Part shown: positions 1 through 51,828 of the stretch, piece by piece
Numbering within the stretch: the first letter of the stretch is position 1
How the letters are laid out: every line of letters begins with the position of its first letter
Source of the DNA: a virus
Taxonomy: Duplodnaviria; Caudoviricetes
DNA: 55,023 bases
IMG/VR virus record: IMGVR_UViG_3300037469_000008
Span: 1 to 55,023 of that record
Direction: 5' to 3' (one strand)
Made by a program: the position numbers and the translations under genes
Notes under the pieces: generated by a model
What the model saw: the letters and a program-made list of their open reading frames with translations, nothing else
Database searches by the model: none
Told to the model about the DNA's origin: nothing

Positions 1-139
1 GCTATCGCTGGCGATGGAACAACTTATGCCGCTAGTGAAAGACTCCAACGACCATATAGCAGACTTGCGCAGGCGCACAGAATTGGCGCAGCAAAGGAGA
101 GCGGGATGAATATATCAATCTCAACGAGGTATAGCCCAT
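1..139. repeat. Terminal direct repeat / circular assembly overlap with 54885-55023
   Basis: 139 bp identical except G13 vs T54897 (GCG/GCT, Ala in TerL); joins TerL end to portal start. Confidence 0.97.
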
Positions 140-4225: not shown

Positions 4226-5887
4226 ATGGCAAAATGGACTGCTGCAAAGCGTAAGAAATACCTCGAAGAACACCCCGAAAATTTTGCCGGGCCAGATGGT
4301 AGCTACCCGATTGAAGACGCATCTGATGTAGGCGACGCGTGGGGGCTGGCTGGTCACGCTGCTGATCCCGATGCCGTGCGTGCCAAAATCAAATCTATCG
4401 CCAAACGCTTGGGCCTGGAAAGTGGCCTCCCCGACACGGCCAAAGAAGACAACAAGGAGCGCTCTATGGACCCCATCGGTGCGGACAATGATGGCAACCA
4501 TGAGCCTATGACTGGCAAACACTCACACGTCCATCCCGCATTTGGGAGCCAGGGCGACGACGATAGCCACGAACACGATCACAGCCACGATGGGGACGCC
4601 GATCACCAGCACGATCATGGGAAGCGCACAGAGATGCCCAGCCAGGCGCTGCTGTATATGCCCATCACCCGCATCGACAATGAGAGACGAGAAGTAGAGG
4701 GCGTGGCGACATCGGAGGCTATTGACTCGTTCAAGACCATTTTCAGCTACAAGGCGAGCAAGAGAGCGTTTCAGGACTGGATCGAGCGTACCGCCAACTG
4801 CCGCGAGATGCACGAGCGCAAGGCCGTAGGCAAGGGCATCGGCGTTTTTTTTGACGACGAGAACAAGAAAATCATCGTGCGCAGTCGTGTCTCTCGCTCT
4901 GCCGATGGGGAGAATACCTGGATCAAGTTCCAGGAGGGCATTCTCAACGGCTACAGCGTCGGGGCGACCAATCCCGTGTGGAGCACCGTCGATCGCGATG
5001 GCAAAATCTACCCCTATCTCGTGAGTTACAAACTTGGTGAACTTTCCTACGTTGATAACGCGTCTAACCCGGACGCGCAGGGCCTGACCATCTGCCGCGC
5101 CGATGGGCTCACTGAACTGGTAGATACCACCGAAGACACCTCTCCTGCTCAAGTTCCGGCTGTCTCTTCTTCCGCGGTTGTGCGAGCCGGCGCGCGGGTC
5201 TCCGATTCTACACGCGCGGCTATGCACGACTCAATCAAGCACACACTGCACGCCGCATCCTCTCAGATGCAGAACTGCGGGTGTGACACCTGCCAAAATG
5301 CCATGAGCCACCTGGACCCGGATGGGGATGGCGATATCGACATCGGCGGTTACGACGATCCTGACAACGACGCCGAGAGCCTGTACAACGGCAAGAACAA
5401 CGCTGACATGGACCGCGCCGTGATTGCGGCCTTAGAGCGCGTCTTGCCCGTGGTCGTCGAGCGCATGTTCGCGCCCGTCTACCAGCGCCAGCAGCAACTG
5501 CTTGCACGACTGGCGCAAACACCTGAAGAAACACCCTCTTTCAATACATCCGAACTGGAAGAACGGCTTACCTCTGCCATTGTAGAGCGAGTGGCCTCTG
5601 CCTCTAGCCTGTCTGAGTTGCGCGCTGATCTGTCAGCGGTAAAGGAGGCGGTAGAGCGCATTGAGAACCAGCCCGCTGTTGGCCTAGCTCCGATTCTCAA
5701 CGGGTCACGTCCCGTTGACAAATCTTTCCCGCTTGATCGAGTCGCCCAGGGGGCAAACGCCGCGCCCGCGCCGCCCGGTGTGATGCAACGTGCGCTCTCT
5801 GCTATGCAGGGAGCGGGCATGCTCGACACACAAGATATGCAAACAAAAGCGGCGACGCTGCTTCTCCAGATGCAGCAGCCCCGCTAA
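4226..5887 (+). CDS. Prohead protease / scaffold fusion with DUF6582-like N-terminus and His-rich linker
   Basis: REMH, GILNGYSVG, ELSYVDNASNPDA protease motifs; C-terminal coiled coil. Confidence 0.85.
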   Translation: MAKWTAAKRKKYLEEHPENFAGPDGSYPIEDASDVGDAWGLAGHAADPDAVRAKIKSIAKRLGLESGLPDTAKEDNKERSMDPIGADNDGNHEPMTGKHSHVHPAFGSQGDDDSHEHDHSHDGDADHQHDHGKRTEMPSQALLYMPITRIDNERREVEGVATSEAIDSFKTIFSYKASKRAFQDWIERTANCREMHERKAVGKGIGVFFDDENKKIIVRSRVSRSADGENTWIKFQEGILNGYSVGATNPVWSTVDRDGKIYPYLVSYKLGELSYVDNASNPDAQGLTICRADGLTELVDTTEDTSPAQVPAVSSSAVVRAGARVSDSTRAAMHDSIKHTLHAASSQMQNCGCDTCQNAMSHLDPDGDGDIDIGGYDDPDNDAESLYNGKNNADMDRAVIAALERVLPVVVERMFAPVYQRQQQLLARLAQTPEETPSFNTSELEERLTSAIVERVASASSLSELRADLSAVKEAVERIENQPAVGLAPILNGSRPVDKSFPLDRVAQGANAAPAPPGVMQRALSAMQGAGMLDTQDMQTKAATLLLQMQQPR

Positions 5888-12867: not shown

Positions 12868-15507
12868 ATGGCGGCAGGAGACATTGCACTAAAACTCATT
12901 CTTGCAGGAAATGCTACGAGCGCGATTGCTGCCATGTCTGGGCTAACAAAACAGAGCCTGAATCTTAAGAACGTGGTAGCGATGGCCGGACTCGCAGCGG
13001 GCGCCGCCATGGTTGATTTTGGGGCCCAGAGTGTGCATGCAGCGGGTGATTTTGGGGCGGGCATGACGACACTGCAAACAGGCGCAGGAGAGCTTGCAAG
13101 CAACATGAATCTTGTCTCCAATGGCGTCCTCGATATGTCCACACAGACGGGGGAGAGTACCAAGCAACTCACCGATGGCATGTTTATGATCGAGAGCGCC
13201 GGCTATCGAGGCGCGGATGGCCTGAATGTGCTCAAGGACGCTGCGGAAGGTGCAAAAGTCGGCAACGCTGACCTCGGCGTGGTTGCGAATGCCGAGACTA
13301 CTGTCATGAAAGACTACGGAATCAGTGCCAATAACGCAGCCACGGCCATGAATTTCCTGACGGCCATTGTGCAAAATGGCAAGACCACATTGCAAGACCT
13401 CGCGTCCTCTATGTCTCAGGTACTTCCTACCGCAGCTGCGGTCAAAGTGCATCTTGTCGATGTTGGCGGCGCCATGGCAACGATGACTAGCGAAGGCGTG
13501 CCTGCCGCGAACGCTGCCACCTATTTGCGCCAGATGCTCATCTCGCTTGCCGCGCCATCCTCTGCCGGATCAAAGGCGCTCAAAGACATCGGGCTTTCCA
13601 GTCAGCAGGTCTCCGATGAAATGAAAAAGAGCCTGCCTGGCGCGCTGCAACTGATTATGTTGCATCTGGGCGAGACCTACAAGGTTGGCTCGCCGCAGTA
13701 TGTGACCGCACTCAAAAACATCGCAGGCGGCAGCAAGCAAATGCAGGGCATGCTCGACTTAACAGGTTCACATCTCAAAGAGTTCCAGGCGAATGTCAAG
13801 AACGTCTCCGGCACAATGAACCAGGGCAAGGGATCGGTGGTCGGATGGTCGCTGGTCCAGCAGGATTTCAACTTCAAAATGGCACAGGCCGGACAGGCAG
13901 TCAATGTACTCATGATCCGCCTGGGAACGGCGCTCTTGCCCATCGTCTCGTCCGTCGTGACTTCGTTCTCGAACTTCGTCTCCTGGCTCAGCCAGGGCAG
14001 CACTGGCGCACGCGCGCTCGAAGTCGCACTCGGTGTCGTAGTGGGGGCGCTCACGGCGTTCGCGATCGGCATGGGGGTACTGAAAGCCATCTCCATCGCG
14101 CAAACGCTCGCAAGTTGGGTGAGTGGCTTTATTGCCATGATCCCGGCCATGTGGGGAGCCGTCACGGCATCCTGGGCATTTACCGCGTCGCTGCTCGCTA
14201 ATCCCATCACCTGGATCGTGCTCGCTATCATTGCGCTCATCGCGGGTCTGGTCCTGCTCATCACGCACTGGAGCCAGGTGGTTTCCTTTTTGCGCGGCGT
14301 CTGGGGCGCGGTCGTCTCCTGGCTTGCTGGAATCTGGACGAACATCAAAAATACTGCTATTTCTGTTTTTACCTCTATTGTCAATTTCTTCACAGAAACT
14401 TGGACCCGGGTAAAAAACACAGCAACAAATATTTGGGGAGGTATTGTTGGGTTTTTGTCTGGAATCTGGTCGCGAGTGACTAGCGTATTCTCATCCGTAT
14501 GGCGCGGGATAGTAAGCGTACTAACCGTTATCTGGGATATTATCAAAATGACAGCTTTTGTTATTTTTGCAATAATTGTTGCCATAATTCTCAAACCATT
14601 TGTTCCGCTTATTGACTGGTTCCGCGCACATTGGGCGCAGATACAGGCAGCACTTTCCACTGCTTGGCGGACGATCCAAAATATAGCCTCAACCATATGG
14701 ACTGCGATAGGCAATTTTTTCTCGACAATAGGCACTTTTATCCATAATTTAATCACAACCGTTTGGTCCGCGACTTCTAGCTTTCTGCTCGGAATATGGT
14801 CAAATATATCAAAAGTCGCATCTTCTATTTGGTCAGGAATAACAACATTTTTCCGAATAGAACTCATTGGATGGAAAAATATCATCTCAACCGTTTGGGT
14901 CTGGATTTCCGGTTTTTTGTCGAAGATTTGGTCTGGGATCAAATCTGCGGCGTCCTCAATTTGGGGCGGAATAAGTTCATCAATCATGAATGTGGTCCAT
15001 AGTTTGCAAGATAAACTCAGCAATATATGGGGAAATATAAAATCTGCATTTTCTAACGCCATGAATTCGCTGGCGGGGATCGCGCATGGTGCCTGGAGTG
15101 CCGTATCAGGCGCGATCAAATCCGCGATCAATACCGTTATCGGGCTGATCAATGGGATGATCGACGGGGTGAACAGCGTCACAAGCAAAGTGGGTATCCC
15201 GTCGATCCCGCATATTCCCTACCTGGCCAGCGGAGGGAGCAACCTTTCATCCGGCATGTACTGGGTAGGTGAATCTGGACCAGAACTGTTGTGGATTCCG
15301 CAGGGATCGACTGTCATGTCGCATCAGCAGAGCACTGCACTCGTGTCGCGTCCTGGTAGCTATGCGCTCGCTGGCCGAGGTGGCGGCTCGTCCACCATTG
15401 TCGTGCAGCCTGCGCCAGTTTATCTCGACAAGCGGCAGGTGGGGCAAATCCTCTTCAACTATCAGGCTTCGGAGATTCGCAAACAGGGAGGCATCAGGCA
15501 CCGATGA
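12868..15507 (+). CDS. Tape measure protein (TP901-type)
   Basis: Ala-rich N-domain, TM segments, about 11-aa Trp periodicity, YLASGG...VGESGPELL. Confidence 0.93.
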   Translation: MAAGDIALKLILAGNATSAIAAMSGLTKQSLNLKNVVAMAGLAAGAAMVDFGAQSVHAAGDFGAGMTTLQTGAGELASNMNLVSNGVLDMSTQTGESTKQLTDGMFMIESAGYRGADGLNVLKDAAEGAKVGNADLGVVANAETTVMKDYGISANNAATAMNFLTAIVQNGKTTLQDLASSMSQVLPTAAAVKVHLVDVGGAMATMTSEGVPAANAATYLRQMLISLAAPSSAGSKALKDIGLSSQQVSDEMKKSLPGALQLIMLHLGETYKVGSPQYVTALKNIAGGSKQMQGMLDLTGSHLKEFQANVKNVSGTMNQGKGSVVGWSLVQQDFNFKMAQAGQAVNVLMIRLGTALLPIVSSVVTSFSNFVSWLSQGSTGARALEVALGVVVGALTAFAIGMGVLKAISIAQTLASWVSGFIAMIPAMWGAVTASWAFTASLLANPITWIVLAIIALIAGLVLLITHWSQVVSFLRGVWGAVVSWLAGIWTNIKNTAISVFTSIVNFFTETWTRVKNTATNIWGGIVGFLSGIWSRVTSVFSSVWRGIVSVLTVIWDIIKMTAFVIFAIIVAIILKPFVPLIDWFRAHWAQIQAALSTAWRTIQNIASTIWTAIGNFFSTIGTFIHNLITTVWSATSSFLLGIWSNISKVASSIWSGITTFFRIELIGWKNIISTVWVWISGFLSKIWSGIKSAASSIWGGISSSIMNVVHSLQDKLSNIWGNIKSAFSNAMNSLAGIAHGAWSAVSGAIKSAINTVIGLINGMIDGVNSVTSKVGIPSIPHIPYLASGGSNLSSGMYWVGESGPELLWIPQGSTVMSHQQSTALVSRPGSYALAGRGGGSSTIVVQPAPVYLDKRQVGQILFNYQASEIRKQGGIRHR

Positions 15508-23137: not shown

Positions 23138-24745
23138 ATGGGAATATCTCAATACGCGGACATCAGCGCCTATCAGGGCATCATCGACTGGCAGAAGTAT
23201 GTTGCCTGGGCAAAGAGCTTCGATGGCACTGCGCGCGTCGCCATGAAAGCCACAGAGGGCGCGGGATTCACTGATGCCCGCTTCGCCGCCAATCGCGCAG
23301 GGGCGCTCGCTGCGGGCGTGGACAGCATCATTTTCTACCACTACGCTCGGTCTGATCTCAATGCTGCTATAGCAGAAGCTGACTGGCTGACTCACGTCGT
23401 TGGGCTGATCCGCGCGCAGGATCTGTTCATGCTTGACTACGAGCAGGGGACGCCGCTGGCGACTGCGCAATGGGCGTATGACTTCCTGACGCGACTCGAA
23501 TCGCTCACGGGCCGCACGCCTATTATCTATGCGAGCACAAGCTACATCCGCGCCCACCTACAGGATGCGCGCCTCGCACACTTCCCGCTCGTGCTGGCCA
23601 ATTGGACCTACGACCCAACGGTGAGGCCTGCTTGCCCTGCGCCGTGGAAGTCGTATGCCTACATGCAGTACAGCGACAAGGCCACGATCCCGGGCATCCA
23701 GGGCGCGGTGGATGCCAATGTTTATATAGAGGACAGACCTATGACAGATCTCAATGTACACGGAGAAGTCGCAGACTTTCTCGACGACGACCAATTCATT
23801 GTCGGGCGCAGCGCATATGAATGCGTTGCCTATTGCGCTGCGCTCATAAAGTTTGCGGGCGCCCCCGGACATGGATCATCAGGCACGGCTCGGCAGATAG
23901 CTGATCTCGCGCAGGCGTGGTACGCGCGCGAGGAGGGAAGCAATCTCGCGTCCAACACCAATGGAATGTCACTCTCAGACGAATACGACATGCTTGCTGG
24001 AATTGGTTTGCGCTATCAAGTCCTCAGTCCTACTGTCACGGCGGTAAAGCAGGCTCTTGGTAAAGGATATCCTGTCCTACTTTGCGGGGCAGAAATAGGA
24101 TTTTATGATCTGGATCTCGGGCATATCCCCTATTCATGGCCTCCATCAGGCAATCACTGCATCGTCGCGAGCGGCGTCGATGGCACCGGCAATCTGCTGG
24201 TCCACGACTGCGCATCCATTGGCTCCGCTGGCGTGCGTCCGGGTCCGCGCAGATATGATATCAGCAAAATGCAACTGGTCAGTGCCACGGCTATCCTTGT
24301 GCCGTGGATAGGAGAAGATATGGTAGATATCAACAACCCCTGGGTAAAAAGCTACTTCACTCAGACTAGCACCAGCCCCGATCGCTGGCACTGTGCGAAA
24401 ACAGGCTTTGATCTTTTCGCGGGCATCCTGGCCGGCTGGCGCGCGATGAATGGCGCTCCGCGACTTCCACTCGGGCCAGAGGTGAAATGCGGGCGTCTGG
24501 CCGTCTACCAGGAGTGTGAAAGCGGGATTGTGCTCTACGATCCTGGCAGAGAATTCGACGCGCCTGGTGGTCCTTGGGCGCCGTGCTATCTGCTCAAATT
24601 GGAAAGCGATCTGGCAAAGAAGTTGCTTGGCAGTGGTCAAACTGCGCCAGCGGACACCACCGCGCTCATCGCAGCCATCAACGCGATTGCTGACGGCATT
24701 GCGCCGCTGGTGGCTCAGGCGCTGGTGGAAGCAGGGAAGCTGTAG
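23138..24745 (+). CDS. Endolysin: GH25 muramidase + C39-like cysteine peptidase + C-terminal domain
   Basis: DISAYQG, KATEG, LDYE, QYSD, VDAN; C...GYPVL...NHCIV...VHD. Confidence 0.9.
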   Translation: MGISQYADISAYQGIIDWQKYVAWAKSFDGTARVAMKATEGAGFTDARFAANRAGALAAGVDSIIFYHYARSDLNAAIAEADWLTHVVGLIRAQDLFMLDYEQGTPLATAQWAYDFLTRLESLTGRTPIIYASTSYIRAHLQDARLAHFPLVLANWTYDPTVRPACPAPWKSYAYMQYSDKATIPGIQGAVDANVYIEDRPMTDLNVHGEVADFLDDDQFIVGRSAYECVAYCAALIKFAGAPGHGSSGTARQIADLAQAWYAREEGSNLASNTNGMSLSDEYDMLAGIGLRYQVLSPTVTAVKQALGKGYPVLLCGAEIGFYDLDLGHIPYSWPPSGNHCIVASGVDGTGNLLVHDCASIGSAGVRPGPRRYDISKMQLVSATAILVPWIGEDMVDINNPWVKSYFTQTSTSPDRWHCAKTGFDLFAGILAGWRAMNGAPRLPLGPEVKCGRLAVYQECESGIVLYDPGREFDAPGGPWAPCYLLKLESDLAKKLLGSGQTAPADTTALIAAINAIADGIAPLVAQALVEAGKL

Positions 24746-25258: not shown

Positions 25259-25312
25259 GTTGAATATTTACTTTTGATACGACGATCAGGGCGGTTTTTA
25301 GATTCTCTCTCA

Positions 25313-26149
25313 CTACTGCGTCTCTATCAGTGAGCGCACCTCCATCACACGCACCGGCATGAGATACGTCGAGCAGAGTTTGTTGCCATAGTCAATGGTA
25401 CGGCCCCCTATCTCGCACTCAATTAGGGCCAGCGCCGGCGTTACAACGTTCCCGCGAGATAATAGATGCGAGCATCCGGCAAGATACTCTTGCCCAGCCT
25501 CCTGCGTCGGCCAGGAGAAGTAGCCGCTCGCATGGCCCGGCTTCGCGGCTTGTTTCATACGCTGTCCGATCACGTATTCGACATCGGGACGCCACAAGGA
25601 GTAGTACCGGCCATCGATCACGCGCACTACCTTGTACGAGATACGCTCTATCATCTTGGCAGGTGGCTTGCGCTGGCTGGACAGCTTTCCGGGTGCCCTC
25701 GCCCATTCTGGACGGGGCAAATTGAGCACCATGCGGCGCGTCTCATCGTTCAACTGCTGCCATATGAGTTGCTGCCAATCGCCAGATGGTTCCTGCCTGT
25801 AGTAGCGGTAGAACTGGCCTTTCCACGCCACACGCTCGCGCCTGCTGATTTTGTAGGTATCCGTCGAGTGGTATGCGCAGAGCACAACCACCAGCCCCAT
25901 CTCAGTGTCTGCGAGCAGGATTTCTGTCCCGATGTATGGCGTCTCAAATTTGCCGTGCTCGCCTTGCCGGCGAATCGTGAGCAACCACAGACCATCGGCG
26001 TTCTGACTTAACTTCGGCTCTGCCTGCTCGCGCTTCCAGATGTCCGCGAGCACATCGCCCGCCTGCATGAGTTGCAACTTAGCAACAGGCAAGTCGAGCA
26101 GCGAGATAGCGGGCGATGCTTCAATAATGAACTCTTCCAGACATTGCAT
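25313..26149 (-). CDS. Hypothetical protein (moron-like)
   Basis: 278-aa ORF, SD GAGGA, own AT-rich upstream region. Confidence 0.8.
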   Translation of the reverse strand: MQCLEEFIIEASPAISLLDLPVAKLQLMQAGDVLADIWKREQAEPKLSQNADGLWLLTIRRQGEHGKFETPYIGTEILLADTEMGLVVVLCAYHSTDTYKISRRERVAWKGQFYRYYRQEPSGDWQQLIWQQLNDETRRMVLNLPRPEWARAPGKLSSQRKPPAKMIERISYKVVRVIDGRYYSLWRPDVEYVIGQRMKQAAKPGHASGYFSWPTQEAGQEYLAGCSHLLSRGNVVTPALALIECEIGGRTIDYGNKLCSTYLMPVRVMEVRSLIETQ

Positions 26150-26214
26150 CGTATAATCCTCTCTGTCAATCTCGTAAAACAGCTTTTCTATATAAATACA
26201 TGGTAAATATCATC

Positions 26215-26244
26215 TTGTCAAGCCCTTGCCAATCGTGCTATACT
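26215..26244 (+). promoter_or_regulatory. Promoter of non-coding tRNA-like unit
   Basis: TTGTCA-N18-TATACT with TG extension. Confidence 0.65.
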
Positions 26245-26296
26245 CATCTCACATACAAGTCTCGATCGAATGTAGCGCTCTGGTATGTGGCGTAGA

Positions 26297-26376
26297 CATG
26301 GAGCAGCGTGCAATGCGCTTGCCGATGTGAGGCAGATCCGGTGCTTCGGATTCAGGTTCGAACGTTGTAAGCATGA
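26297..26376 (+). ncRNA. Degenerate class-II tRNA-like fold
   Basis: D-like hairpin, TGCC-GATGTGA-GGCA arm, long variable arm, GGTTCGAA; poor T and acceptor stems. Confidence 0.35.
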
Positions 26377-26392
26377 TGCGTTCGTAGCCGAT

Positions 26393-26482
26393 CGGGATGT
26401 AGTGTCCGATGAGGCCGGTAACAAGGAACGGCAACACGCCTGACGTATTCAGGAGATGGATGTTCGATTCATCCCATCCCGA
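26393..26482 (+). tRNA. Atypical tRNA-Pro-like RNA (probably non-decoding)
   Basis: CGGGATG/CATCCCG acceptor stem, U8A9, GTGT/ACAC D-stem, CCTGA/TCAGG with 5-nt loop, GGATG-TTCGATT-CATCC, A73; no encoded CCA. Confidence 0.8.
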
Positions 26483-26522
26483 TTTTCCGCGATTTCACCT
26501 GGACTGTTGCTTGCAAAAACAG

Positions 26523-26562
26523 GCCCTGCCTGGGAACAACTCATCAGGCAGGGCTTTGTATT
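26523..26562. terminator. Intrinsic terminator (probably bidirectional)
   Basis: GCCCTGCCTG...CAGGCAGGGC followed by TTTGTATTT; A-run upstream. Confidence 0.75.
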
Positions 26563-27026
26563 TAGGGATGCTCATCGTCCGCAATGTGCACAGGCGGTGC
26601 AAGGAACCTCGCCCACGTTGTGCGAATAACCTCTCGCCCAACCGGATGCTCGCGGGCCGCATCGCGCGCCTCGCACACCTCGCGGGGAACATCAGTTAAA
26701 TCAACGATTTCGACGGCGACAGGATCTGGAAATGTGGCAACGAGTTCTCGAATATCGGCTTCGTGCCGTGGATCCAAATTGATGTCGTCAATGATTGGGC
26801 TAAAGCCATGCATCAGCGTGTCAATGATGATTGTATTTCTTATCCTGCGCACAAACCATTCATCTTTGTAGGTATAGCCCGTGCCGAAGAGCATTGCGCG
26901 CAGCAAGTCACGCGAGATAATGATGTATCGCTCTGGATTTTCGCCGTGCAGAGCCTCTGTCCGGATTTGTCGCGCTCGTGTTGATTTCCCCGATCCCTGC
27001 AAGCCTTTCATGAGAACTACTTTCAT
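26562..27026 (-). CDS. P-loop kinase (polynucleotide kinase-like, AAA_33)
   Basis: GLQGSGKST, ISRDLLR, IIDDINL, VCEARDAAR. Confidence 0.88.
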   Translation of the reverse strand: MKVVLMKGLQGSGKSTRARQIRTEALHGENPERYIIISRDLLRAMLFGTGYTYKDEWFVRRIRNTIIIDTLMHGFSPIIDDINLDPRHEADIRELVATFPDPVAVEIVDLTDVPREVCEARDAAREHPVGREVIRTTWARFLAPPVHIADDEHP

Positions 27027-27337
27027 CTCTCCTCCAACGGAGACCATGCTTGCTCAAAATCGATTTGGTAACGGCGCAAGAAATTGATCAATTCGCCCAT
27101 GTTTTTAAACTCGATATTGACATGGGCATTAGGCGAAACAATATCAATAACTCGGGCGTCCTGCCCCCTCTCCTGATGCACACAAAAGATTTGGAAGCGC
27201 AGTGCATCATCTTCTTTTGATACCAGGAATCGGTACATCTTTGGCGCACTGGACGCAAAGAGAAGAAAGCCTGGTTCCCTCTCCCATGTCTCCGCTTGTT
27301 GCGTACTACTTAATAACAATGCCCGCGTGATTTTCAT
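27023..27337 (-). CDS. Hypothetical protein
   Basis: ATGA overlaps on both sides. Confidence 0.65.
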   Translation of the reverse strand: MKITRALLLSSTQQAETWEREPGFLLFASSAPKMYRFLVSKEDDALRFQIFCVHQERGQDARVIDIVSPNAHVNIEFKNMGELINFLRRYQIDFEQAWSPLEER

Positions 27338-34011: not shown

Positions 34012-34320
34012 TCAGGTTCGATTAAGTTTCATGCGTAGATGCAGAATGGCCTCAATCTCTTCTGCCTCTAACTCTGCGCAGCTATCGCAGCAGTTATATT
34101 GGTTGAGATCAGGCCCGGAAATGTGGCCATCTTTGCCATAGCACTCCCAACAGAGCATGCGCCCGCATACGTCGCACATAGGAGCTGCTGGCCGCGCATC
34201 GGCAAAGGAAAATCGGCTCATGTGGCAGATTTCGCATCCGGTAGGTTCGAGTACTTTGGTGGCGTGTACGCGGATAATCATGCGATATTTTGGCGGCACT
34301 GCCAATTCGGTGAAGTTCAT
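34012..34320 (-). CDS. Cys-rich Zn-finger protein
   Basis: Four CxxC-type pairs. Confidence 0.7.
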   Translation of the reverse strand: MNFTELAVPPKYRMIIRVHATKVLEPTGCEICHMSRFSFADARPAAPMCDVCGRMLCWECYGKDGHISGPDLNQYNCCDSCAELEAEEIEAILHLRMKLNRT

Positions 34321-35507
34321 GCCACGACCCGCCTTTCTGCCAGGCTTGCCAGCCCGCGCTGGGTGATCATCGCAGCGACTGCCGGCGTGACGGACAACCC
34401 GATTTGGCGCAATGCCTCCTTCTTGCTGCAGTCGAAGCGAAAGCTGGCCGGATAGCCCATGGCGCGCCGGGATTCGTCAAACGTCAACATCCGGTAGCCA
34501 CACTCGTCCACGCTTGCTTCTGGATGCGGCACGGTGATGAACGCATGTCGATCTCTTGTGGTTATCGTGCCGATTGGCTCATTCACTGTGCGGTAGATGG
34601 CCGTTCCGTAGTAGCTCATCAAGAAAAAAGGGAGATGGCGGTATCGGGCCAGTCCCTGCCGGATTTTGTGGTAGGTTCTCTCCACCAGCGGCCTGGTGCG
34701 CTGCCCGATGATAGGTGTAGGAAGCTTCCAGTCCAACACATCTTTGGCCGGGTGATAGAACGGGACCACCTCTTTGCCGCATCCAGGGCACACGTAGATG
34801 TACTGCTCCCCGTATGCGCCCCAATGCTTCAAGCTTTTCCAGGATTGGAGTGCGCCCACTTGCCGGTCACAGGCTTTACAGTAGGCCCCCGGCCTGATGT
34901 CCAGGTCTGGCATCTGATGGCCATTCAGGGAGAATACCGCATACCAGCGATCGCGCGACTCGCAGCAAGGGGCCGGGAATGCTGGGGCGAACATGCTGTT
35001 GAAGTAGACGGTTTGCGCCTGATACCCCAATCTTTTCATGTCGCTCACCCAGGTCTGGTATCCTCCCCATCGCTCAACTTCCGGCACATTCTCCACAAAA
35101 ATCAGTTTGAACGGATGCCCCCGCTTTTTCTTCGTCTCCGCCCAGCGAACAACTTCGTTCATCGTTGTTCGGGACCGCGTTGCGGGATCGTCTTCTTCAC
35201 GATCCGTCCACCTGCCGCGCAACTCGGGCCAGAGTTCTGGCTGGTTCTGCCCCAGGATCTTTGCGCCTATGGCTGTGGACTGGTAACGACACTCGGGAGA
35301 AGCCTGCAGTATATCGGCATCCGGATAATGTCCCGGATGAGTTTTTGTGATGTCCGTAAGCACCTGCCGCGTGTGTGGAAAGTTCAACGCATGTGTTTCG
35401 AGGCTTCTCTCGTTGTGGTTGAAAGCTGCCAGAGTGTGAACACCACATGCGGCAAATCCCGAATCCCATCCACCAGCCCCTGAGAAAAGGGTTAATGCAG
35501 TAGCCAT
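34317..35507 (-). CDS. C5 cytosine DNA methyltransferase
   Basis: LFSGAGG, SPEC, ENV, R.R, IGLSV. Confidence 0.9.
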   Translation of the reverse strand: MATALTLFSGAGGWDSGFAACGVHTLAAFNHNERSLETHALNFPHTRQVLTDITKTHPGHYPDADILQASPECRYQSTAIGAKILGQNQPELWPELRGRWTDREEDDPATRSRTTMNEVVRWAETKKKRGHPFKLIFVENVPEVERWGGYQTWVSDMKRLGYQAQTVYFNSMFAPAFPAPCCESRDRWYAVFSLNGHQMPDLDIRPGAYCKACDRQVGALQSWKSLKHWGAYGEQYIYVCPGCGKEVVPFYHPAKDVLDWKLPTPIIGQRTRPLVERTYHKIRQGLARYRHLPFFLMSYYGTAIYRTVNEPIGTITTRDRHAFITVPHPEASVDECGYRMLTFDESRRAMGYPASFRFDCSKKEALRQIGLSVTPAVAAMITQRGLASLAERRVVA

Positions 35508-35556
35508 ATAACACCTCGCATCCATCGTAGAGCCGAGATACCCCGGCGGATAATAA

Positions 35557-36372
35557 CTAAACCATGCAATAGCCCGACTCACATGTGTCAAGCTCTTCAA
35601 ACAGTCCCTGCTGGCCGTATTCATGGGTACTCTGGTCCAGGGGCTTCATTAGTCGCGTGAACCACACCGGGTCCATACCCAGCATCTTGCGTCGCTCATT
35701 GAGGAACCGCTCTAACTCAACCGACTTCTGGAAGAGTTCGGGTTGATTCTGTCTCATCTCCTGCCAGACACTAAGCTTGTGATACGGGCAAAACCAACAG
35801 GACGACTTTGGGGGAATAGGCAATCCAGCGCTGGTGATAATGTTCATGCAATCTTGCCGGGTGAGTGGGCGCTCTACCTCATCCAGTAGGGGGAAGACAT
35901 TCTCTTTCCATTCAATCGTGTCGGGGTCCGTGTTGGGCTTCACACGCTCAATCTCGTCCAGACTGATGCCAAGTCCAACCTGAGCACCACTGGTCTTTGC
36001 ACCATGCGAACGCAGCCATTTATCCACCACCAGGATTTTGAAGTCTGCTGTGCAGGAGCGCCGGGGAGGCGCTCCTGATCCGTTCATGCGCACCGGAATG
36101 CCAATCGAGCGAGAACCTGGGCGAGTAAGATGCTGATAGAGCGTTTCCGGTTCGCCAAAGCGGGTCTTTTGCAACTCAATGAATGCAATATCGTGTTTCC
36201 CTGCGAACGGCCTCGCGTAATCGCGCACATATGTCAGCGTCGCGGGGTTCTCTGAGTCCTCGCCCACGTTACAGAAGAGGAATGTTTTGAAGTCGATTTT
36301 ACTCTGTGCAGCGAGCACCAGAGCGGCTGTACTCTGGACTCCACCCCCATAACTAAAGACACGCAGAGTCAT
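35557..36372 (-). CDS. PAPS-reductase-like (PP-loop) protein
   Basis: SYGGGVQS, CT..FK, FPL, KSSCWFCPY. Confidence 0.85.
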   Translation of the reverse strand: MTLRVFSYGGGVQSTAALVLAAQSKIDFKTFLFCNVGEDSENPATLTYVRDYARPFAGKHDIAFIELQKTRFGEPETLYQHLTRPGSRSIGIPVRMNGSGAPPRRSCTADFKILVVDKWLRSHGAKTSGAQVGLGISLDEIERVKPNTDPDTIEWKENVFPLLDEVERPLTRQDCMNIITSAGLPIPPKSSCWFCPYHKLSVWQEMRQNQPELFQKSVELERFLNERRKMLGMDPVWFTRLMKPLDQSTHEYGQQGLFEELDTCESGYCMV

Positions 36373-38852: not shown

Positions 38853-39079
38853 CTCCCTCTCATCCAGGCATCGCGCACGGATGGTTTCGTTTCAGGTGCG
38901 TGCTGGCGTTGCCATTCGTCCTGTGTCAGAACGCATTCGGGAAACACCTGCTCTTCATCGCCAGCGCCATTCCATCGCACCCAGACTATGCGGTGTGGTG
39001 CAACATCGCGCGTGGCGATTCCCTGTGTGCCATGAATGTGATGGACGACATCACCGACTTTGAATCGTAATTCAGTCAC
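38849..39079 (-). CDS. Small SH3-like hypothetical protein
   Basis: FKVGDVV...V.VRW. Confidence 0.65.
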   Translation of the reverse strand: MTELRFKVGDVVHHIHGTQGIATRDVAPHRIVWVRWNGAGDEEQVFPECVLTQDEWQRQHAPETKPSVRDAWMRGR

Positions 39080-41276
39080 CTGCCACCTCCGCCCACAGCG
39101 TTGTCTGCGTTTTGCTTCTGATCATCCGGTCCAGGTTCTTGCGCGCAGCGGCAAAGTAGGACGGCTTGAGTTCACACCCTACAAATCGGCGTCCGTGTCG
39201 AATTGCCTCATAGCCAGTGCTGCCAATGCCGGCGAATGGATCAAGTACCGTCTCGCCTGCGTTGCTCCACAAGCGCACGCACCGCTCGATGAGTGACAAC
39301 TGAAGCGGGCATACATGTTTCTCGTCGTCGCTCTCGCGCCCCTCCGCAGCGTTCAGGGTGTTGCTCTCGCGGATGTCGTACCACACCGGATGCGCCCACT
39401 TGATCCATTCGTCGTTGGTGATATCGGGCTGAATGGGCGTCGTGTTCTCTCCCGGTTTGCGAAAGATGAGGATGTAGTCCGCCAGTCCGGGCCGCATCCA
39501 GGAGCTGTCTTTGCGGAGTTGCACGAAGAGCAGGCCCTTTGCCTTTGTGCGCACAGCCTGGGCCTGTGGGTTTTTGTCCACCGTGATTTCGCCGTGATAC
39601 ATCCATCCCCGATCCACAAACGCGCGCACGACCTCACCGCGAAAGTCCTTGAGTCCGATAAAGCCATCTTTCACGAGGCTGGCGGCCACCTGCTGTACAT
39701 GGATGCAGCAGTCTCGTCCGGGCTGAGTAACCCGCAGCAGGTGAGTGATGATGTAGTTGAGATGCTGATAGAATTCAGCGGTGTTTTTGCTATTGCCGAG
39801 ATCGCGATCTGTCGGGCTGTAGCAAAACAGGTCCTGAAATGGGATAGAACTGACAGTGAGGGCGACGGAATTATCAGGGATCTCAGCCAGCCGCTCACAG
39901 CTATCACCCAGCATCAGGGTATAGTGGGTATTCTTGATCGTGTCGGTGGTATAGGCGTCGTCCTGGCTCGCGTTCTCGATTTCTGCGCGCTCAAAGGACT
40001 GGACATGTTGAATAAGTTGCTGACTCATGGACGCAGCCTCATGCTCTTTCCGCATCACATTTTGATAGATTTCCTGTTCAATTTCAGAGAGGACAATATA
40101 GGCGTTCACCGGATGTTTTTGCCCGAAACGGTAGCACCGCCTGATGCACTGGTAGTACGCCTCGAAACTGTCGGAGAGGCCAATAAAAGCCATGTTGTGA
40201 CAGGACTGGAAGTTCATTCCATACCCAGCAATTTTGGGTTTGGTGATAAGCACGCGGACGTGTCCACCCTGAAAGGCTTCGATCGCGGCGATTTTCTCGT
40301 CCGGGCTATCGCTGCCCGTGATTTCGACTGCACCAGGGATTGCCTGAGCCAGTGCGGCGCTCTCATCGTTCATGCCGCACCACAAAATCCACTGCTCATC
40401 GTTCGACTGCACCAACTCAACGGCGTGAGCAACCCGCTCTTCGATCGTGCCCCTGCGCGCCTGACTACGATCCTGGATGCCTTTTAGTCCGGTAAAGAAA
40501 AGCTGATCGGCGGGTTTGTAGTCCGTCCCCACGATCACCGACTCGACCTGCAGCGCCGGCAGGACATAGCCCTCATCGCTGAATCCGATGTCAGATGGAC
40601 GCTTGATCGACATGCTCCATGATGCCATCCAGCGATAGAATGCATCCGTTGCGTGGCCTTTCAGCCGCCAGCCGGTGCCGCTGCCATTGGAGCTGTCGTG
40701 TACGAAGAATGTTGCGAGCATCTCGGCGCGTGGCAGAATGCCCAGGAATTCGCTGTGATTGGCGATTTCTACGAGGTCATTGGGCGCCGGGGTTGCAGTG
40801 CAACAGAGTCGGTAGGGCGTCTTCATGAACATCTCGATCAACAGATCGCGTGTTTTGCCGTCTACCGCTTTGAGGATACTGCTCTCATCCAAGACCACCG
40901 CGCCGAAGTCAGCAGGATCAAAGTGGCCGATCATCTCATAGTTGGTGATGTTGATGCCGTTCGTCATGTCGTCACGCGAACGGGTGTAGTGGACATCGAC
41001 GCCGATTTTTCTGGCCTCGGTCGCTGTTTGGCGGGCCACTGACAACGGTGCGATGATCAGCACACGCGTTCTCGTGAGTCGCGCCCATTCCACCTGGCAC
41101 ATCGTCTTCCCTAACCCGGTGTCAGCAAACAGGGCCGCGCGGCCTTTTCTCAGTGCCCACTGCACCAGGGTTTTCTGGAAGTCAAAAAGTTTCGGGTGGA
41201 TGGCAGAAATCGGGACCTCGATCCCTGCCGACGGCGCGGTGGCTTTTTTGCTTGCTAGGAAATGCTGATAATCCAT
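39072..41276 (-). CDS. SNF2-like helicase fused to N4/N6 DNA methyltransferase
   Basis: DTGLGKT, DESS, TATP, QCIRRCYRFGQ; GDSCE, SSIPF, HVCPLQ, VLDPFAGIGST. Confidence 0.9.
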   Translation of the reverse strand: MDYQHFLASKKATAPSAGIEVPISAIHPKLFDFQKTLVQWALRKGRAALFADTGLGKTMCQVEWARLTRTRVLIIAPLSVARQTATEARKIGVDVHYTRSRDDMTNGINITNYEMIGHFDPADFGAVVLDESSILKAVDGKTRDLLIEMFMKTPYRLCCTATPAPNDLVEIANHSEFLGILPRAEMLATFFVHDSSNGSGTGWRLKGHATDAFYRWMASWSMSIKRPSDIGFSDEGYVLPALQVESVIVGTDYKPADQLFFTGLKGIQDRSQARRGTIEERVAHAVELVQSNDEQWILWCGMNDESAALAQAIPGAVEITGSDSPDEKIAAIEAFQGGHVRVLITKPKIAGYGMNFQSCHNMAFIGLSDSFEAYYQCIRRCYRFGQKHPVNAYIVLSEIEQEIYQNVMRKEHEAASMSQQLIQHVQSFERAEIENASQDDAYTTDTIKNTHYTLMLGDSCERLAEIPDNSVALTVSSIPFQDLFCYSPTDRDLGNSKNTAEFYQHLNYIITHLLRVTQPGRDCCIHVQQVAASLVKDGFIGLKDFRGEVVRAFVDRGWMYHGEITVDKNPQAQAVRTKAKGLLFVQLRKDSSWMRPGLADYILIFRKPGENTTPIQPDITNDEWIKWAHPVWYDIRESNTLNAAEGRESDDEKHVCPLQLSLIERCVRLWSNAGETVLDPFAGIGSTGYEAIRHGRRFVGCELKPSYFAAARKNLDRMIRSKTQTTLWAEVAGD

Positions 41277-41337
41277 TAATTGTCCCGTCCTTTTTGCCGC
41301 GAAAGCGGATTCCTTGTAACTCGTCCTGTGGCTCCCC

Positions 41338-41492
41338 TTGCGGAATGGCATTCTGGGGAGTATAATAGTTGCTTACCGCGCAAGTCCGGTGCAGCCGCAT
41401 CATTCCTGCTTCCACGCTTCCGCGTGAACAGAACCTACAGTCCGAACACTCAAGGCCGCATCCAGATGTCAGAGAGATGCGGCCCTTTTATG
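41338..41492 (+). ncRNA. Antisense sRNA unit (promoter, about 120 nt, terminator)
   Basis: TTGCGG-N17-TATAAT; GGCCGCATC/GATGCGGCC hairpin plus TTTT. Confidence 0.7.
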
Positions 41493-42176: not shown

Positions 42177-42248
42177 AGTATAGGCTCTTGAAACCGCCGT
42201 TGTCAAGGTTTGCATCGCCTTGCCTGGACGCTACGCGTGTGTGATAAT
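42177..42248. promoter_or_regulatory. Divergent promoter pair
   Basis: (-) TTGACA-N18-TATACT at 42206-42177; (+) TTGCCT-N17-GATAAT at 42220-42248. Confidence 0.65.
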
Positions 42249-50305: not shown

Positions 50306-50426
50306 ACACAAGAGCACCGGGTGTACCGGTGCTCTTGTGTTATGCCACTACACCATAGATTGCTCCTTTCTATACGCCCCAACTTATTGCAGGTGTACCG
50401 GTGCTCTTGTATTATGCCACTACACC
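50306..50426. repeat. Two 35-bp direct repeats around a 37-bp spacer, plus 15-bp anti-repeat (CRISPR mini-array-like or att-like)
   Basis: 50320-50354 and 50392-50426 match at 34/35; 50306-50320 is the reverse complement of 50326-50340. Confidence 0.85.
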
Positions 50427-51460: not shown

Positions 51461-51499
51461 ATACTCCTCTCGGTTCCGATCCCCCGATGGAGCATCACA

Positions 51500-51588
51500 A
51501 TCATATCTTCCGACAAGAGCACGTGTCAAGAGGCAGAAATATCGAGAAATGGCTACCTCTTGCGAATTTACCGTGTCGAATATATACT
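51500..51588. promoter_or_regulatory. Divergent promoters (recombinase / late operon)
   Basis: (-) TTGACA-N18-TATGAT; (+) TTGCGA-N17-TATACT; CAAGAGG/CCTCTTG inverted repeat. Confidence 0.75.
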
Positions 51589-51615
51589 TGCAGTAAAGCA
51601 CGCCGGAGTGTGTGT

Positions 51616-51828
51616 ATGGCAAAACTGACACCAACAGGTGAGCATGAAGCCATCGATCTCAAGCGGCTTCACTCCAAGGACATCCTGTATTTGGACGATG
51701 AAATTGACACGACTCTTACAGGAAAATATCCTAACGGCGGGTTCGCCCGAATCTGCCTGGAAGTGAAGAATGGGATCGTGGGGCTCATCGAATTCATAAA
51801 AACGAGTAAGCCTGAGAACAGGCACTAA
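51616..51828 (+). CDS. Small DUF2292/YezD-like protein, late regulator candidate
   Basis: GGFARICLEVKNGIVGLIE pattern; SD GGAG. Confidence 0.6.
   Translation: MAKLTPTGEHEAIDLKRLHSKDILYLDDEIDTTLTGKYPNGGFARICLEVKNGIVGLIEFIKTSKPENRH

What the first reader, a model, noticed from the sequence alone, without database searches (positions are those of the whole stretch)
26215..26562. Stand-alone ncRNA unit with a remodelled tRNA-Pro mimic
A promoter (26215-26244) and terminator (26523-26562) bracket about 300 nt with no credible ORF, antisense to the surrounding operon. 26393-26482 keeps all four tRNA stems perfectly paired, plus U8/A9, a TTCGATT T-loop and tRNA-Pro-type C1-G72/A73. However, the anticodon loop is only 5 nt (CGTAT) and the D-loop is 28 nt with its own hairpin (GCCG/CGGC). 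Intact stems with rebuilt loops suggest selection for shape rather than decoding. Possible roles: decoy for anticodon nucleases or tRNA-sensing defences, synthetase or EF-Tu sponge, or an RNase P processing tag for the upstream RNA. A PNK-like kinase gene converges on it.
Basis: partly seen in the sequence, partly recalled or inferred. Interest (0 to 1): 0.8.

Follow-up and report, generated by a model that had tools for sequence, protein, structure and literature searches.

The report
Phage gene for anticodon-less proline-tRNA look-alike
A temperate soil phage carries a small, separately transcribed gene for an RNA that derives from a proline tRNA but has lost its anticodon loop and gained a swollen D-loop; it probably cannot decode, and may be either a tRNA mimic or a decaying tRNA gene.

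Summary
Window 26215-26563 (+) has a sigma-70-type promoter, about 310 nt with no supported ORF, and a strong hairpin terminator shared with the converging kinase gene.

At 26393-26482 lies a cloverleaf with canonical junction geometry (7/2/4/1/5/4/5/7, all 25 pairs Watson-Crick). It has a canonical T-loop, a 5-nt "anticodon" loop and a 28-nt D-loop. It is unique in the window and appeared in 0 of 1500 shuffles.

ARAGORN at default settings and Rfam do not call it a tRNA (RF00005: 13.7 bits; threshold 29).

The tRNA-Pro reading is supported. A covariance model of the element ranks ordinary tRNA-Pro genes first in two bacterial phyla. Its acceptor stem matches 115 or more phage-contig tRNAs, 111 of which are tRNA-Pro of normal length. 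Against the closest cellular tRNA-Pro, 16 pairs are unchanged, 4 changed on both sides, 1 on one side, and none is broken.

Function is not shown. No relative with the same remodelling was found, and no RNA data exist. Related phages lack the gene at this site. Three other contigs carry different aberrant tRNA-like genes.

Decoy/mimic, about 0.4, is my best guess. A decaying tRNA relic, about 0.3, is the main rival.

The parts
26215..26244 (+). Sigma-70-type promoter TTGTCA-18-TG-n-TATACT. The transcription start is inferred near 26251.
   Evidence: 10 of 12 matches, TG present; one of the three best such sites in the window, alongside 44414(+) and 42206(-), which also have TATACT.
26193..26221 (-). 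Promoter of the neighbouring gene g278 (TTGACA-17-TATTTA). It lies back to back with the RNA promoter, and the two -35 hexamers overlap by 5 nt.
   Evidence: Read. The same TTGACAA motif with 17-nt spacing and a TA-rich -10 lies upstream of g278 homologues in 10 of 18 related loci.
26251..26392 (+). 5' leader of about 140 nt with three predicted hairpins. It contains a GGTTCGAAC motif (26355-26363).
   Evidence: MFE -49 kcal/mol, z = -0.88, so not significant on its own. No family match. The related element in L012 has no such leader.
26393..26482 (+). tRNA-Pro-derived cloverleaf, 90 nt. Acceptor 26393-26399/26475-26481; U8 A9 26400-26401; D stem 26402-26405/26434-26437; 28-nt D-loop 26406-26433 with hairpin 26414-26417/26429-26432; G26 26438; stem 26439-26443/26449-26453 with 5-nt loop 26444-26448; variable 26454-26457; T stem 26458-26462/26470-26474; T-loop 26463-26469; A73 26482.
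   Evidence: structure and chance. (not called a tRNA). (tRNA-Pro relatives).
26483..26522 (+). 3' trailer, starting with U74. No CCA is encoded.
   Evidence: Read.
26523..26563 (.). Bidirectional intrinsic terminator. Stem 26523-26532/26545-26554; T-run 26555-26563 on the + strand; TTTTTGC on the - strand after the kinase gene.
   Evidence: z = -3.23. One search reports the minus-strand core.
26562..27047 (-). Converging gene for a kinase-only polynucleotide-kinase-like protein (161 aa; Walker A GSGKST).
   Evidence: Pfam AAA_33 7e-15. PHROG 505 'polynucleotide kinase' 7e-21, covering profile positions 2-140 of 295. 34-39% identity to annotated phage PNKs among the 25 records listed. Translation.
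25313..26149 (-). g278, a conserved phage protein of unknown function, transcribed divergently from the RNA gene.
   Evidence: 110 homologues. No Pfam or PHROG match. AlphaFold model with pLDDT 86.5 and no PDB fold match at E <= 0.001.

Best explanation
The locus is a self-contained accessory gene ('moron': own promoter, own terminator, opposite in direction to the neighbouring genes) of a temperate soil siphovirus. Host RNA polymerase makes a primary transcript of about 310 nt. Within it lies a 90-nt RNA that descends from a tRNA-Pro gene.

The part of a tRNA read by the end-processing machinery is intact. This comprises a 7-bp acceptor stem with C1-G72 and A73, U at -1, U at 74, and a 5-bp T stem with a canonical T-loop. 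I therefore infer that RNase P and RNase Z cut it out and that CCA is added.

The decoding part is gone. The 7-nt anticodon loop is replaced by 5 unrelated bases. The D-loop has grown from about 9 to 28 nt, and the insert pairs with the old G18/G19 region. It should therefore not read codons. Lacking G35/G36, it should be a poor ProRS substrate.

My best guess for its role is molecular mimicry. An abundant, uncharged tRNA-shaped RNA would occupy a host or rival factor that recognises the tRNA acceptor/T-arm domain or tRNA-Pro specifically, such as a tRNA-directed defence nuclease or an enzyme that modifies the acceptor end.

Shown: the anatomy, the non-random cloverleaf, the tRNA-Pro ancestry, and the failure to be called a tRNA. 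Inferred: transcription, processing and mimicry.
For: Anatomy and promoter/terminator.

Strand-specific structure: z = -4.06 on the + strand against -1.21 on the - strand.

Non-random cloverleaf: 0 of 1500 shuffles reproduce it.

Not a decoder by standard criteria: ARAGORN default finds 0 genes; Rfam has no match at E <= 10; RF00005 scores 13.7 bits against a threshold of 29.

tRNA-Pro ancestry:
- Model R1 ranks tRNA-Pro 1-3 among the 8 loci fetched from 151 genomes of one phylum, and 1-5 among the 8 fetched from 151 genomes of another.
- 111 of 115 IMG/VR stretches with its acceptor and T-loop are tRNA-Pro of 72-78 nt.
- The D-loop still contains AGGCCGGTAA, which aligns with the AG-CCGGT-A D-loops of tRNA-Pro.

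Stems: all 21 canonical pairs are kept. Against the closest cellular tRNA-Pro there are 4 two-sided changes and 0 breaks.

Phage lifestyle: it is temperate, with an integrase at 50420-51634, which fits a moron.

The slot between the upstream genes and g278 is variable in relatives.

Other phage contigs carry solitary or clustered aberrant tRNA-like genes with their own TATACT promoters: L012, L027 and L170.

In print: phage tRNAs as counter-measures to tRNA-targeting defences (abstract of PMC10264068; listings of PMC11464382 and PMC11555353). Irregular, apparently non-translating tRNAs in acidobacterial soil metagenomes (passages of PMC5389517).
Against: - No second copy of this architecture was found. 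blastn against 31 related loci gave nothing. R1 found nothing in 33 sources apart from the element itself. The exact 25-mer is absent from IMG/VR. Only 2 elongated stretches with this acceptor exist in IMG/VR, and neither shares the remodelling. Selection on the new shape therefore cannot be demonstrated.
- The closest relatives of the phage (63-65% identity in g278) have no RNA gene here.
- The compensatory changes may predate the loss of the anticodon.
- RNAfold's ensemble favours a different register for the T arm and D stem. The element alone folds with only z = -2.11.
- L027 holds a tRNA-Lys-like remnant whose T arm is broken. tRNA genes therefore do decay in this phage group.
- The kinase has no phosphatase domain, and no RNA ligase or RtcB was found. 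The kinase is almost an orphan, so its adjacency to the RNA is not a conserved module.
Confidence: 0.4

Rival explanations
1. A decaying tRNA gene. The phage once carried a working tRNA-Pro gene, perhaps part of a small tRNA cluster. Indels in the D-loop and anticodon loop killed it. It is still transcribed but has no function and will eventually be lost.
For: - It is a singleton with no conserved relative.
- The gene is absent at this site in the nearest relatives.
- L027 shows a clearly broken tRNA-Lys-like remnant beside the same neighbouring gene.
- The leader contains a stray GGTTCGAAC motif. At very relaxed thresholds ARAGORN calls a poor second 'tRNA' there.
- The compensatory changes could all predate inactivation.
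Against: - All 25 pairs are Watson-Crick, and none of the 21 canonical pairs is broken relative to any of six tRNA-Pro genes compared. Damage is confined to two loops.
- One of the three best promoters in the window and a strong terminator are retained.
- The anticodon loop is not merely shortened but wholly replaced.
- Phage genomes are compact and usually shed dead DNA (general knowledge).
Confidence: 0.3
2. A processing or stability tag. The cloverleaf matters only as an RNase P/RNase Z cleavage site that sets the 3' end of the 140-nt leader RNA, which would be the true effector (for example a base-pairing small RNA). Alternatively, as in L012, it sets the 5' end of a downstream mRNA.
For: - The cloverleaf sits 140 nt inside the transcript rather than at its start.
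- In L012 a tRNA-like element lies between a TATACT promoter and a ribosome-binding site plus ATG of a small hydrophobic ORF.
- Precedents recalled from memory, not checked here: mascRNA/MALAT1 and the tRNA-miRNA units of murine gammaherpesvirus 68.
Against: - The leader alone is not significantly structured (z = -0.88) and has no Rfam match.
- It is absent in L012, where the element follows the promoter directly.
- A plain tRNA would serve as a tag without the loops being rebuilt.
Confidence: 0.12
3. An unusual but working decoder. One version is the type-II tRNA-Leu(CAA) fold proposed by relaxed ARAGORN. Another is a 4-bp stem with the 7-nt loop ACGUAUU (anticodon GUA).
For: ARAGORN -ps calls tRNA-Leu(CAA) at 26392-26483. 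Irregular tRNAs that still translate are known, for example allo-tRNAs (passages of PMC7609411 and PMC5389517).
Against: - The Leu fold is 10 kcal/mol worse than the Pro-type fold. It needs a 3-bp D stem of two G-U pairs and one U-A, a G.A mismatch and A33.
- The junction geometry and nearest relatives are those of a class-I tRNA-Pro.
- The alternative 7-nt loop has C33 rather than U33.
- RF00005 gives 13.7 bits.
Confidence: 0.05
4. A phage attachment site (attP) that copies part of a host tRNA-Pro gene.
For: The phage has a tyrosine integrase. tRNA genes are common integration targets (general knowledge).
Against: - The element lies 24 kb from the integrase gene.
- It contains both strands of the acceptor stem, its own promoter and a terminator.
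- It shares only short runs with real tRNA-Pro 3' halves.
- A pair of 35-nt direct repeats next to the integrase gene is a better attP candidate.
Confidence: 0.02

Closest known systems
Ordinary bacterial and phage tRNA-Pro genes
   Same: The acceptor stem CGGGATG/CATCCCG, A73, U8 and A9 are identical. The same junction geometry is kept. The anticodon stem is 4 of 5 pairs identical, with the fifth compensatory. The T-loop is canonical, and the D-loop core AGGCCGGTAA is retained.
   Different: There is no 7-nt anticodon loop and no GGN/UGG anticodon. The D-loop is 28 nt instead of 8-10. The variable loop is 4 nt. It is not detected by ARAGORN at default settings or by RF00005 at threshold. It has a 140-nt leader and its own promoter and terminator.
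Irregular and allo-tRNA-like sequences of soil Acidobacteria (Mukai et al. 2017, PMC5389517; review PMC7609411; passages read, supplements not seen)
   Same: They also come from soil metagenomes. They are tRNA-shaped RNAs with extra loops or five-stem junctions that standard tools miss. [quoted passage not shown] One related phage contig here was binned with a Blastocatellaceae genome.
   Different: Allo-tRNAs are defined by 8/4 or 9/3 acceptor/T stems and a long variable arm, whereas this element is 7/5 with a 4-nt variable loop. Those described keep an anticodon loop. Sequence relatedness was not tested, because their sequences are in supplements that I could not open.
Phage tRNAs that counter tRNA-targeting defences (PMC10264068, abstract read; PMC11464382 and PMC11555353, search listings only)
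   Same: They are phage-encoded tRNA genes altered in the anticodon loop, interpreted as a response to host tRNases.
   Different: Those tRNAs still decode and replace the cleaved host tRNA. This RNA has no usable anticodon, so it could act only as a decoy, not as a replacement.
tRNA-like processing tags and viral tRNA mimics (mascRNA, MHV68 vtRNAs, plant-virus TLS; recalled, not checked here)
   Same: They are cloverleaf-like elements recognised by RNase P, RNase Z or the CCA-adding enzyme without decoding.
   Different: They come from eukaryotic or RNA-virus systems, and there is no evidence of homology.
T4-type tRNA repair (Pnk plus RNA ligase)
   Same: A polynucleotide-kinase-like P-loop kinase gene lies next to the tRNA-like gene.
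   Different: Only the kinase half is present. There is no RNA_ligase or RtcB match in the window. The kinase-RNA pairing is not seen elsewhere.

Membership tests
Canonical tRNA (Rfam RF00005 / ARAGORN) | Covariance-model score at or above the gathering threshold (29 bits), or an ARAGORN call at default settings | tested here: not met
   RF00005 best match is 26416-26482, 13.7 bits, E = 0.2. There is no Rfam match at E <= 10. ARAGORN default finds 0 genes.
Canonical tRNA (Rfam RF00005 / ARAGORN) | 7-bp acceptor stem stacked on a 5-bp T stem, with a T-loop TTCRANN and G53-C61 | tested here: met
   Note that RNAfold prefers a shifted 7-bp/5-nt register for this arm.
Canonical tRNA (Rfam RF00005 / ARAGORN) | 7-nt anticodon loop with U33 | tested here: not met
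   The loop is CGTAT, 5 nt. Opening the closing A-U pair gives ACGUAUU, which has C33.
Canonical tRNA (Rfam RF00005 / ARAGORN) | D-loop of about 7-11 nt presenting G18 G19, with A14 pairing to U8 | tested here: not met
   The D-loop is 28 nt and position 14 is C. The GG of the retained CCGGT core lies at the edge of the GCCG/CGGC hairpin.
tRNA-Pro lineage | C1-G72 and A73; acceptor stem shared with known tRNA-Pro genes | tested here: met
   The acceptor is identical to that of the tRNA-Pro(GGG) in L040. 111 of 115 IMG/VR stretches with this acceptor are tRNA-Pro. R1 ranks tRNA-Pro first in two phyla.
tRNA-Pro lineage | Anticodon NGG (G35 G36), the main ProRS determinant (recalled from the E. 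coli literature) | tested here: not met
   No GG is present in the 5-nt loop.
Allo-tRNA (Mukai 2017) | 12-bp acceptor branch in 8/4 or 9/3 form, plus a long variable arm | tested here: not met
   The element has a 7/5 branch and a 4-nt variable loop in the best-supported fold. The definition is taken from passages of PMC5389517 and PMC7609411.
tmRNA | tRNA-Ala-like domain with G3-U70, plus a tag reading frame | tested here: not met
   ARAGORN's tmRNA search finds 0. Rfam has no match. Pair 3-70 is G-C.
Bacterial Y RNA (YrlA) | Rfam model match; tRNA-like module closed at the acceptor end and opened at the anticodon end onto a Ro-binding stem; linked rsr gene | tested here: not met
   No Rfam match. 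The topology is that of a tRNA, with an open acceptor stem. An rsr gene was not searched for specifically. The YrlA topology is recalled from memory.
T4-type tRNA repair module | Kinase-phosphatase Pnk together with an RNA ligase | tested here: not met
   Only the kinase half is present. PF09414 and PF01139 have no match in the window at E <= 1. PF09511 was not tested.
Phage moron | Own promoter and terminator, inserted between genes of a temperate phage, absent from relatives | tested here: met
   Promoter and terminator. Integrase present. The gene is absent at the same site in relatives. Expression from the prophage was not tested.

The most novel reading that the evidence does not exclude
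Soil phages carry a so far undescribed class of solitary, promoter-driven 'anticodon-less' or otherwise rebuilt tRNA genes. These keep only the acceptor/T-arm half that host enzymes recognise. They would act as decoys that soak up tRNA-directed immune effectors, such as tRNases or enzymes that modify the CCA end. The element here would be a tRNA-Pro-derived example. The aberrant elements in L012, L027 and L170 would be further, independently derived examples.
Probability: 0.2. Interest if true: 0.8.

Novelty: new variant of a known kind. Interest (0 to 1): 0.5.

Why it matters
Phage tRNA genes are now read as weapons in a conflict over the host tRNA pool, but the known cases are working tRNAs that replace cleaved ones. 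An RNA that keeps the tRNA handle but discards the anticodon would be a different tactic, namely titration rather than replacement. It would also give a function to the 'irregular tRNAs' seen in soil metagenomes since 2017.

There is a practical point as well. Standard tRNA finders miss such genes entirely, so their frequency in phage genomes is unknown.

If it turns out to be a relic instead, it is a clean example of how phage tRNA genes decay: through loop indels first, with the stems still intact.

Tried and rejected
Close relatives:
- Single-protein scans of IMG/VR with the kinase, g278, the lysin and a tail protein found none.
- blastn of 25300-27100 and of the element alone against 50,697 phage records gave no match and one 24-nt chance match respectively.

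Sequencing runs:
- No RNA holder is listed.
- Contigs from 4 runs were laid on 25300-27100. Only the probable source run covers the RNA gene. Two other runs hold identical short pieces of the flanking genes, and no variant letters were seen. This gives no evidence on expression or variation.

Host tRNAs:
- The two genomes that hold relatives of g278 (titled Blastocatellaceae and Ktedonobacteraceae MAGs) have no stretch similar to the element (best E = 0.1).
- The host remains unknown.

Other searches:
- The relaxed version of my own motif scan was too noisy to use.
- Rfam at E <= 10 on 16 related loci gave only long-hairpin chance hits to miRNA models.
- The fold of g278 gave no PDB match at E <= 0.001, so the neighbouring gene offers no functional clue.
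- Classifying L012 and L027 by alignment to 891 ARAGORN tRNAs was weak: Glu/Gln-like and Gly/Lys-like respectively. For the window element that panel is circular, because it was fetched with the element's own acceptor.

Rejected readings:
- tmRNA, Y RNA and T-box: no Rfam or ARAGORN hits.
- attP: see the rival explanations.
- A coding region: no family hits.

Literature:
- Searches for a described phage non-decoding tRNA decoy listed none. This is not proof that none is in print.
Full report
CONTEXT

The window is a 55,023-base IMG/VR virus record. Near-identical DNA occurs in soil and rhizosphere metagenome runs.

It is a siphovirus-like genome:
- portal at 138-2264, and a protein at 4226-5887 that matches a head-maturation-protease family;
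- tape measure at 12868-15507;
- GH25 lysin at 23138-24745;
- large terminase at 53566-54993;
- a minus-strand block from about 41.3 kb down to 25.3 kb holding replication and methylase genes.

A tyrosine integrase lies at 50420-51634 on the minus strand, so the phage is temperate. ARAGORN finds no tRNA or tmRNA anywhere in the window, and Rfam finds nothing at gathering thresholds.

THE OBSERVATION

The promoter TTGTCA-18-TATACT, preceded by TG, lies at 26215-26244. It is one of the three best sigma-70-like sites in the whole window. The other two, at 42206(-) and 44414(+), also use TATACT.

The terminator is a 10-bp G+C-rich stem (26523-26532/26545-26554). It is followed by TTTGTATTT on the plus strand and by TTTTTGC on the minus strand. 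The scanner reports only a minus-strand core, because the loop is longer than it allows. The trailer folds with z = -3.23. The hairpin therefore ends both the RNA gene and the converging kinase gene.

The predicted 313-nt plus-strand RNA folds far better than shuffles (z = -4.06, 0 of 100 as good). The minus strand does not (z = -1.21). Small ORFs exist here, but six tested ones match no phage protein family.

THE CLOVERLEAF

At 26393-26482 the pieces follow the canonical tRNA spacing exactly:
- 7-bp acceptor stem;
- two bases (U8, A9);
- 4-bp D stem;
- one base (G26);
- 5-bp stem;
- 4-nt variable loop;
- 5-bp T stem with loop TTCGATT, stacked directly on the acceptor;
- A73.

All 25 pairs, including a 4-bp hairpin inside the D-loop, are Watson-Crick.

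My own scan for acceptor plus T arm finds this one site in the window. In 1500 shuffles of the window there were 59 acceptor-plus-T hits. Of these, 8 also had a stem at the anticodon position, and none also had the D stem.

The two anomalies are as described: a 5-nt loop (CGTAT) where the anticodon loop should be, and a 28-nt D-loop.

Standard tools do not accept it as a tRNA:
- ARAGORN at default settings calls nothing.
- Rfam has no match at E <= 10 in 551 nt.
- RF00005 gives 13.7 bits against a threshold of 29.

Two caveats apply.
- With thresholds lowered, ARAGORN proposes a type-II tRNA-Leu(CAA) using the 5-bp stem as a long variable arm. That fold needs a 3-bp D stem made of two G-U pairs and one U-A, a G.A mismatch and A33.
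- RNAfold's ensemble prefers a shifted 7-bp register for the T arm and a different pairing for the D stem (canonical T stem p about 0.18, D stem p about 0.09). Thermodynamics alone therefore does not single out the cloverleaf. The comparative data below do.

ANCESTRY

In 151 genomes of the phylum of one genome that holds a relative of the neighbouring gene, 16 genomes had a match. Of the 8 loci fetched, ranks 1-3 are ordinary tRNA-Pro genes: GGG, GGG and TGG, at 36.6-33 bits. Three more are tRNA-Arg(CCT), and two have no ARAGORN call. The fourth-ranked match overall (30.3 bits) was not fetched as a locus.

In 151 genomes of a second phylum, 10 genomes had a match. Ranks 1-5 of the 8 fetched are tRNA-Pro(TGG). 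The rest are one Ala, one Gly and one with no call.

One cellular tRNA-Pro(GGG), in L040, has exactly the same acceptor stem and discriminator.

ARAGORN of the 115 tRNA-Pro, 3 tRNA-Ile and 1 tRNA-Leu. Their lengths are 72-78 nt, with one of 87 nt.

The best pairwise match, a phage tRNA-Pro(TGG), is identical at 57 of its 75 bases. The alignment places the D-loop core AGGCCGGTAA opposite the AG-CCGGT-A of normal tRNA-Pro D-loops. The extra 6 and 12-13 nt lie on either side of that core. The downstream insert supplies the CGGC that pairs with the old GCCG, so the former G18/G19 region is partly sequestered.

Against the closest cellular tRNA-Pro, the 21 canonical pairs are 16 unchanged, 1 changed on one side (G.U to G-C), 4 changed on both sides, and 0 broken. 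Against five other tRNA-Pro genes there are 6-9 two-sided changes and again no break. The anticodon loop shares nothing with CTGGGGG or TTTGGGA.

RELATIVES OF THE PHAGE

The neighbouring gene g278 (25313-26149, minus strand) has 110 homologues at 46-74% identity, many on contigs of 47-67 kb. I fetched 33 loci around such homologues.

None has sequence similarity to 26150-26562 by blastn, and R1 finds nothing in them.

In most relatives g278 is preceded by tightly packed same-strand genes, or by a terminator followed directly by a conserved promoter. That promoter, TTGACAA-17-TA-rich -10, is present in 10 of 18 loci examined and in the window at 26221-26193. Its -35 hexamer overlaps the -35 of the RNA promoter on the other strand by 5 nt. 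The two promoters are thus back to back and probably mutually exclusive.

The kinase gene is also absent from these relatives and has only three weak homologues in the large protein database. The RNA gene and the kinase gene therefore sit in a variable accessory slot. They are not a conserved pair.

OTHER ABERRANT tRNA-LIKE GENES

Three observations suggest that the window's element is not an isolated oddity.

1. L012, a 1.3-kb contig whose g278 is 52% identical, has a promoter TTGTCA-17-TATACT at the same place and in the same divergent orientation. A few bases downstream lies an 88-91-nt element with a perfect 7-bp acceptor (one G.U), U at -1, A73, U74 and a canonical T arm. Its body folds as one long irregular hairpin. 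It is followed by a ribosome-binding site and a small hydrophobic ORF.

2. L027/L011 is a complete 102-kb phage. Directly after its g278 gene it has a promoter TTGCAA-17-TATACT and then a tRNA-Lys(UUU)-like sequence. This has an 8-bp acceptor, a 25-nt insert before a canonical D arm, a canonical CTTTTAA anticodon loop, and a T-loop that lacks the 3' strand of its stem. RF00005 gives 24 bits for a partial match.

3. When the acceptor pattern is restricted to long bodies, only two stretches turn up in all of IMG/VR. One, L170, lies in a 53.6-kb contig whose fetched 14.4-kb locus shows no protein similarity to the window. It is a 91-nt element with the tRNA-Pro acceptor, a normal D arm and a 41-nt aberrant anticodon region. 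It sits in an array with two further irregular tRNA-like genes.

These cases cut both ways. They show that rebuilt tRNA genes with their own promoters recur in such phages. The broken T arm in L027 shows that plain decay also happens.

MECHANISM

Shown:
- the anatomy;
- its non-random nature;
- its tRNA-Pro ancestry;
- its failure to qualify as a decoder;
- its moron-like setting in a temperate phage.

Inferred from general knowledge of tRNA processing (recalled, not tested): an intact acceptor/T-arm domain with U at -1 and U at 74 should be cut by RNase P and RNase Z and should receive CCA. Without G35/G36 it should be a poor ProRS substrate. With a 5-nt loop it cannot pair with a codon in the normal way.

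The most economical functional reading is therefore a non-decoding tRNA mimic. It would act by occupying something that recognises tRNA, in line with the current view that phage tRNA genes answer tRNA-directed host defences (PMC10264068, abstract; PMC11464382 and PMC11555353, listings). I put this at about 0.4.

The main rival, at about 0.3, is a tRNA gene caught in decay. Minor rivals are:
- a processing tag for the leader RNA (0.12);
- an odd but working decoder (0.05);
- attP (0.02).

The kinase is kinase-only, and no RNA ligase or RtcB is present. A T4-style repair module is therefore not supported.

COMPARISON WITH WHAT IS KNOWN

The closest described things are the 'irregular tRNAs' and inactive allo-tRNA-like sequences that Mukai et al. 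found in acidobacterial soil metagenomes and metatranscriptomes. They carry extra loops and five-stem junctions, and some lie near toxin-antitoxin genes (passages of PMC5389517 and PMC7609411).

The element here does not meet the allo-tRNA definition (8/4 or 9/3 stems and a long variable arm). I could not compare sequences, because they are in supplements that were closed.

I found no paper describing a phage-encoded, anticodon-less tRNA decoy in four full-text searches. That is not proof that none exists.

VERDICT

The tRNA-Pro-mimic description is supported as anatomy and ancestry. The functional interpretation remains open, because the element is a singleton with no expression data.

It is a new variant of a known kind, namely phage tRNA genes and irregular tRNAs. 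Interest is 0.5.

Noticed in passing
window 26193-26244: The RNA promoter and the promoter of g278 are back to back. Their -35 hexamers (TTGTCA on the + strand, TTGACA on the - strand) overlap by 5 nt, so RNA polymerase probably cannot occupy both at once. The TTGACAA box is conserved upstream of g278 homologues in 10 of 18 related loci.
   Followed up: partly
window 25313-26149 (-): g278 is a widespread phage protein with 110 homologues at 46-74% identity. It has no Pfam or PHROG family. Its AlphaFold model is confident (pLDDT 86.5), mostly beta, and has no PDB fold match at E <= 0.001. One 433-aa homologue carries a recombinase zinc-ribbon domain, PF13408.
   Followed up: partly
L012 104-232 (- strand): A second aberrant tRNA-like gene sits at the same position relative to g278. 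It has a promoter TTGTCA-17-TATACT, then an 88-91-nt element with a perfect acceptor and T arm but a rod-like body, then a ribosome-binding site and a small hydrophobic ORF that runs off the contig.
   Followed up: partly
L027 3327-3455 (same as L011): A complete 102-kb phage has, just after its g278 gene, a promoter TTGCAA-17-TATACT and a tRNA-Lys(UUU)-like remnant. The remnant has a 25-nt insert after the acceptor strand and no 3' T-stem strand. It is the only RF00005 signal in that genome (24 bits).
   Followed up: partly
L170 11432-12378 (- strand): An apparently unrelated 53.6-kb viral contig holds an array of three irregular tRNA-like genes, one with the tRNA-Pro acceptor and a 41-nt aberrant anticodon region. 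Two copies of a 22-nt hairpin motif lie in the same array. It resembles the 'polycistrons of irregular tRNAs' of Mukai et al. 2017.
   Followed up: partly
window 50320-50354 and 50392-50426: Two 35-nt direct repeats (97% identical, 72 nt apart) lie just downstream of the tyrosine integrase gene (50420-51634, - strand). They are candidate integrase arm sites or part of attP.
   Followed up: no
window 1-2264 and 53566-54993: The large terminase lies at the right end and the portal at the left end of the record. The contig may therefore be a nearly complete, circularly permuted genome, despite the 54% completeness estimate.
   Followed up: no
window 39072-41351 (-) and 34317-35624 (-): There is a 759-aa fusion of an SNF2-type helicase with an N6/N4 DNA methylase, and a separate C5 cytosine methylase.
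   Followed up: no
L010 1-312 / L014 (- strand): Upstream of another g278 homologue lies a strongly structured stretch (z = -4.08). It has three tandem near-copies of an 11-nt unit beginning GTTCCCG and a long perfect hairpin that serves as the terminator of the upstream operon.
   Followed up: no
L032 3520-3593: A tRNA-Ala(TGC) with G3-U70 lies about 480 nt downstream of a distant g278 homologue. It scores only 19 bits with RF00005 because of an unusual D arm.
   Followed up: no
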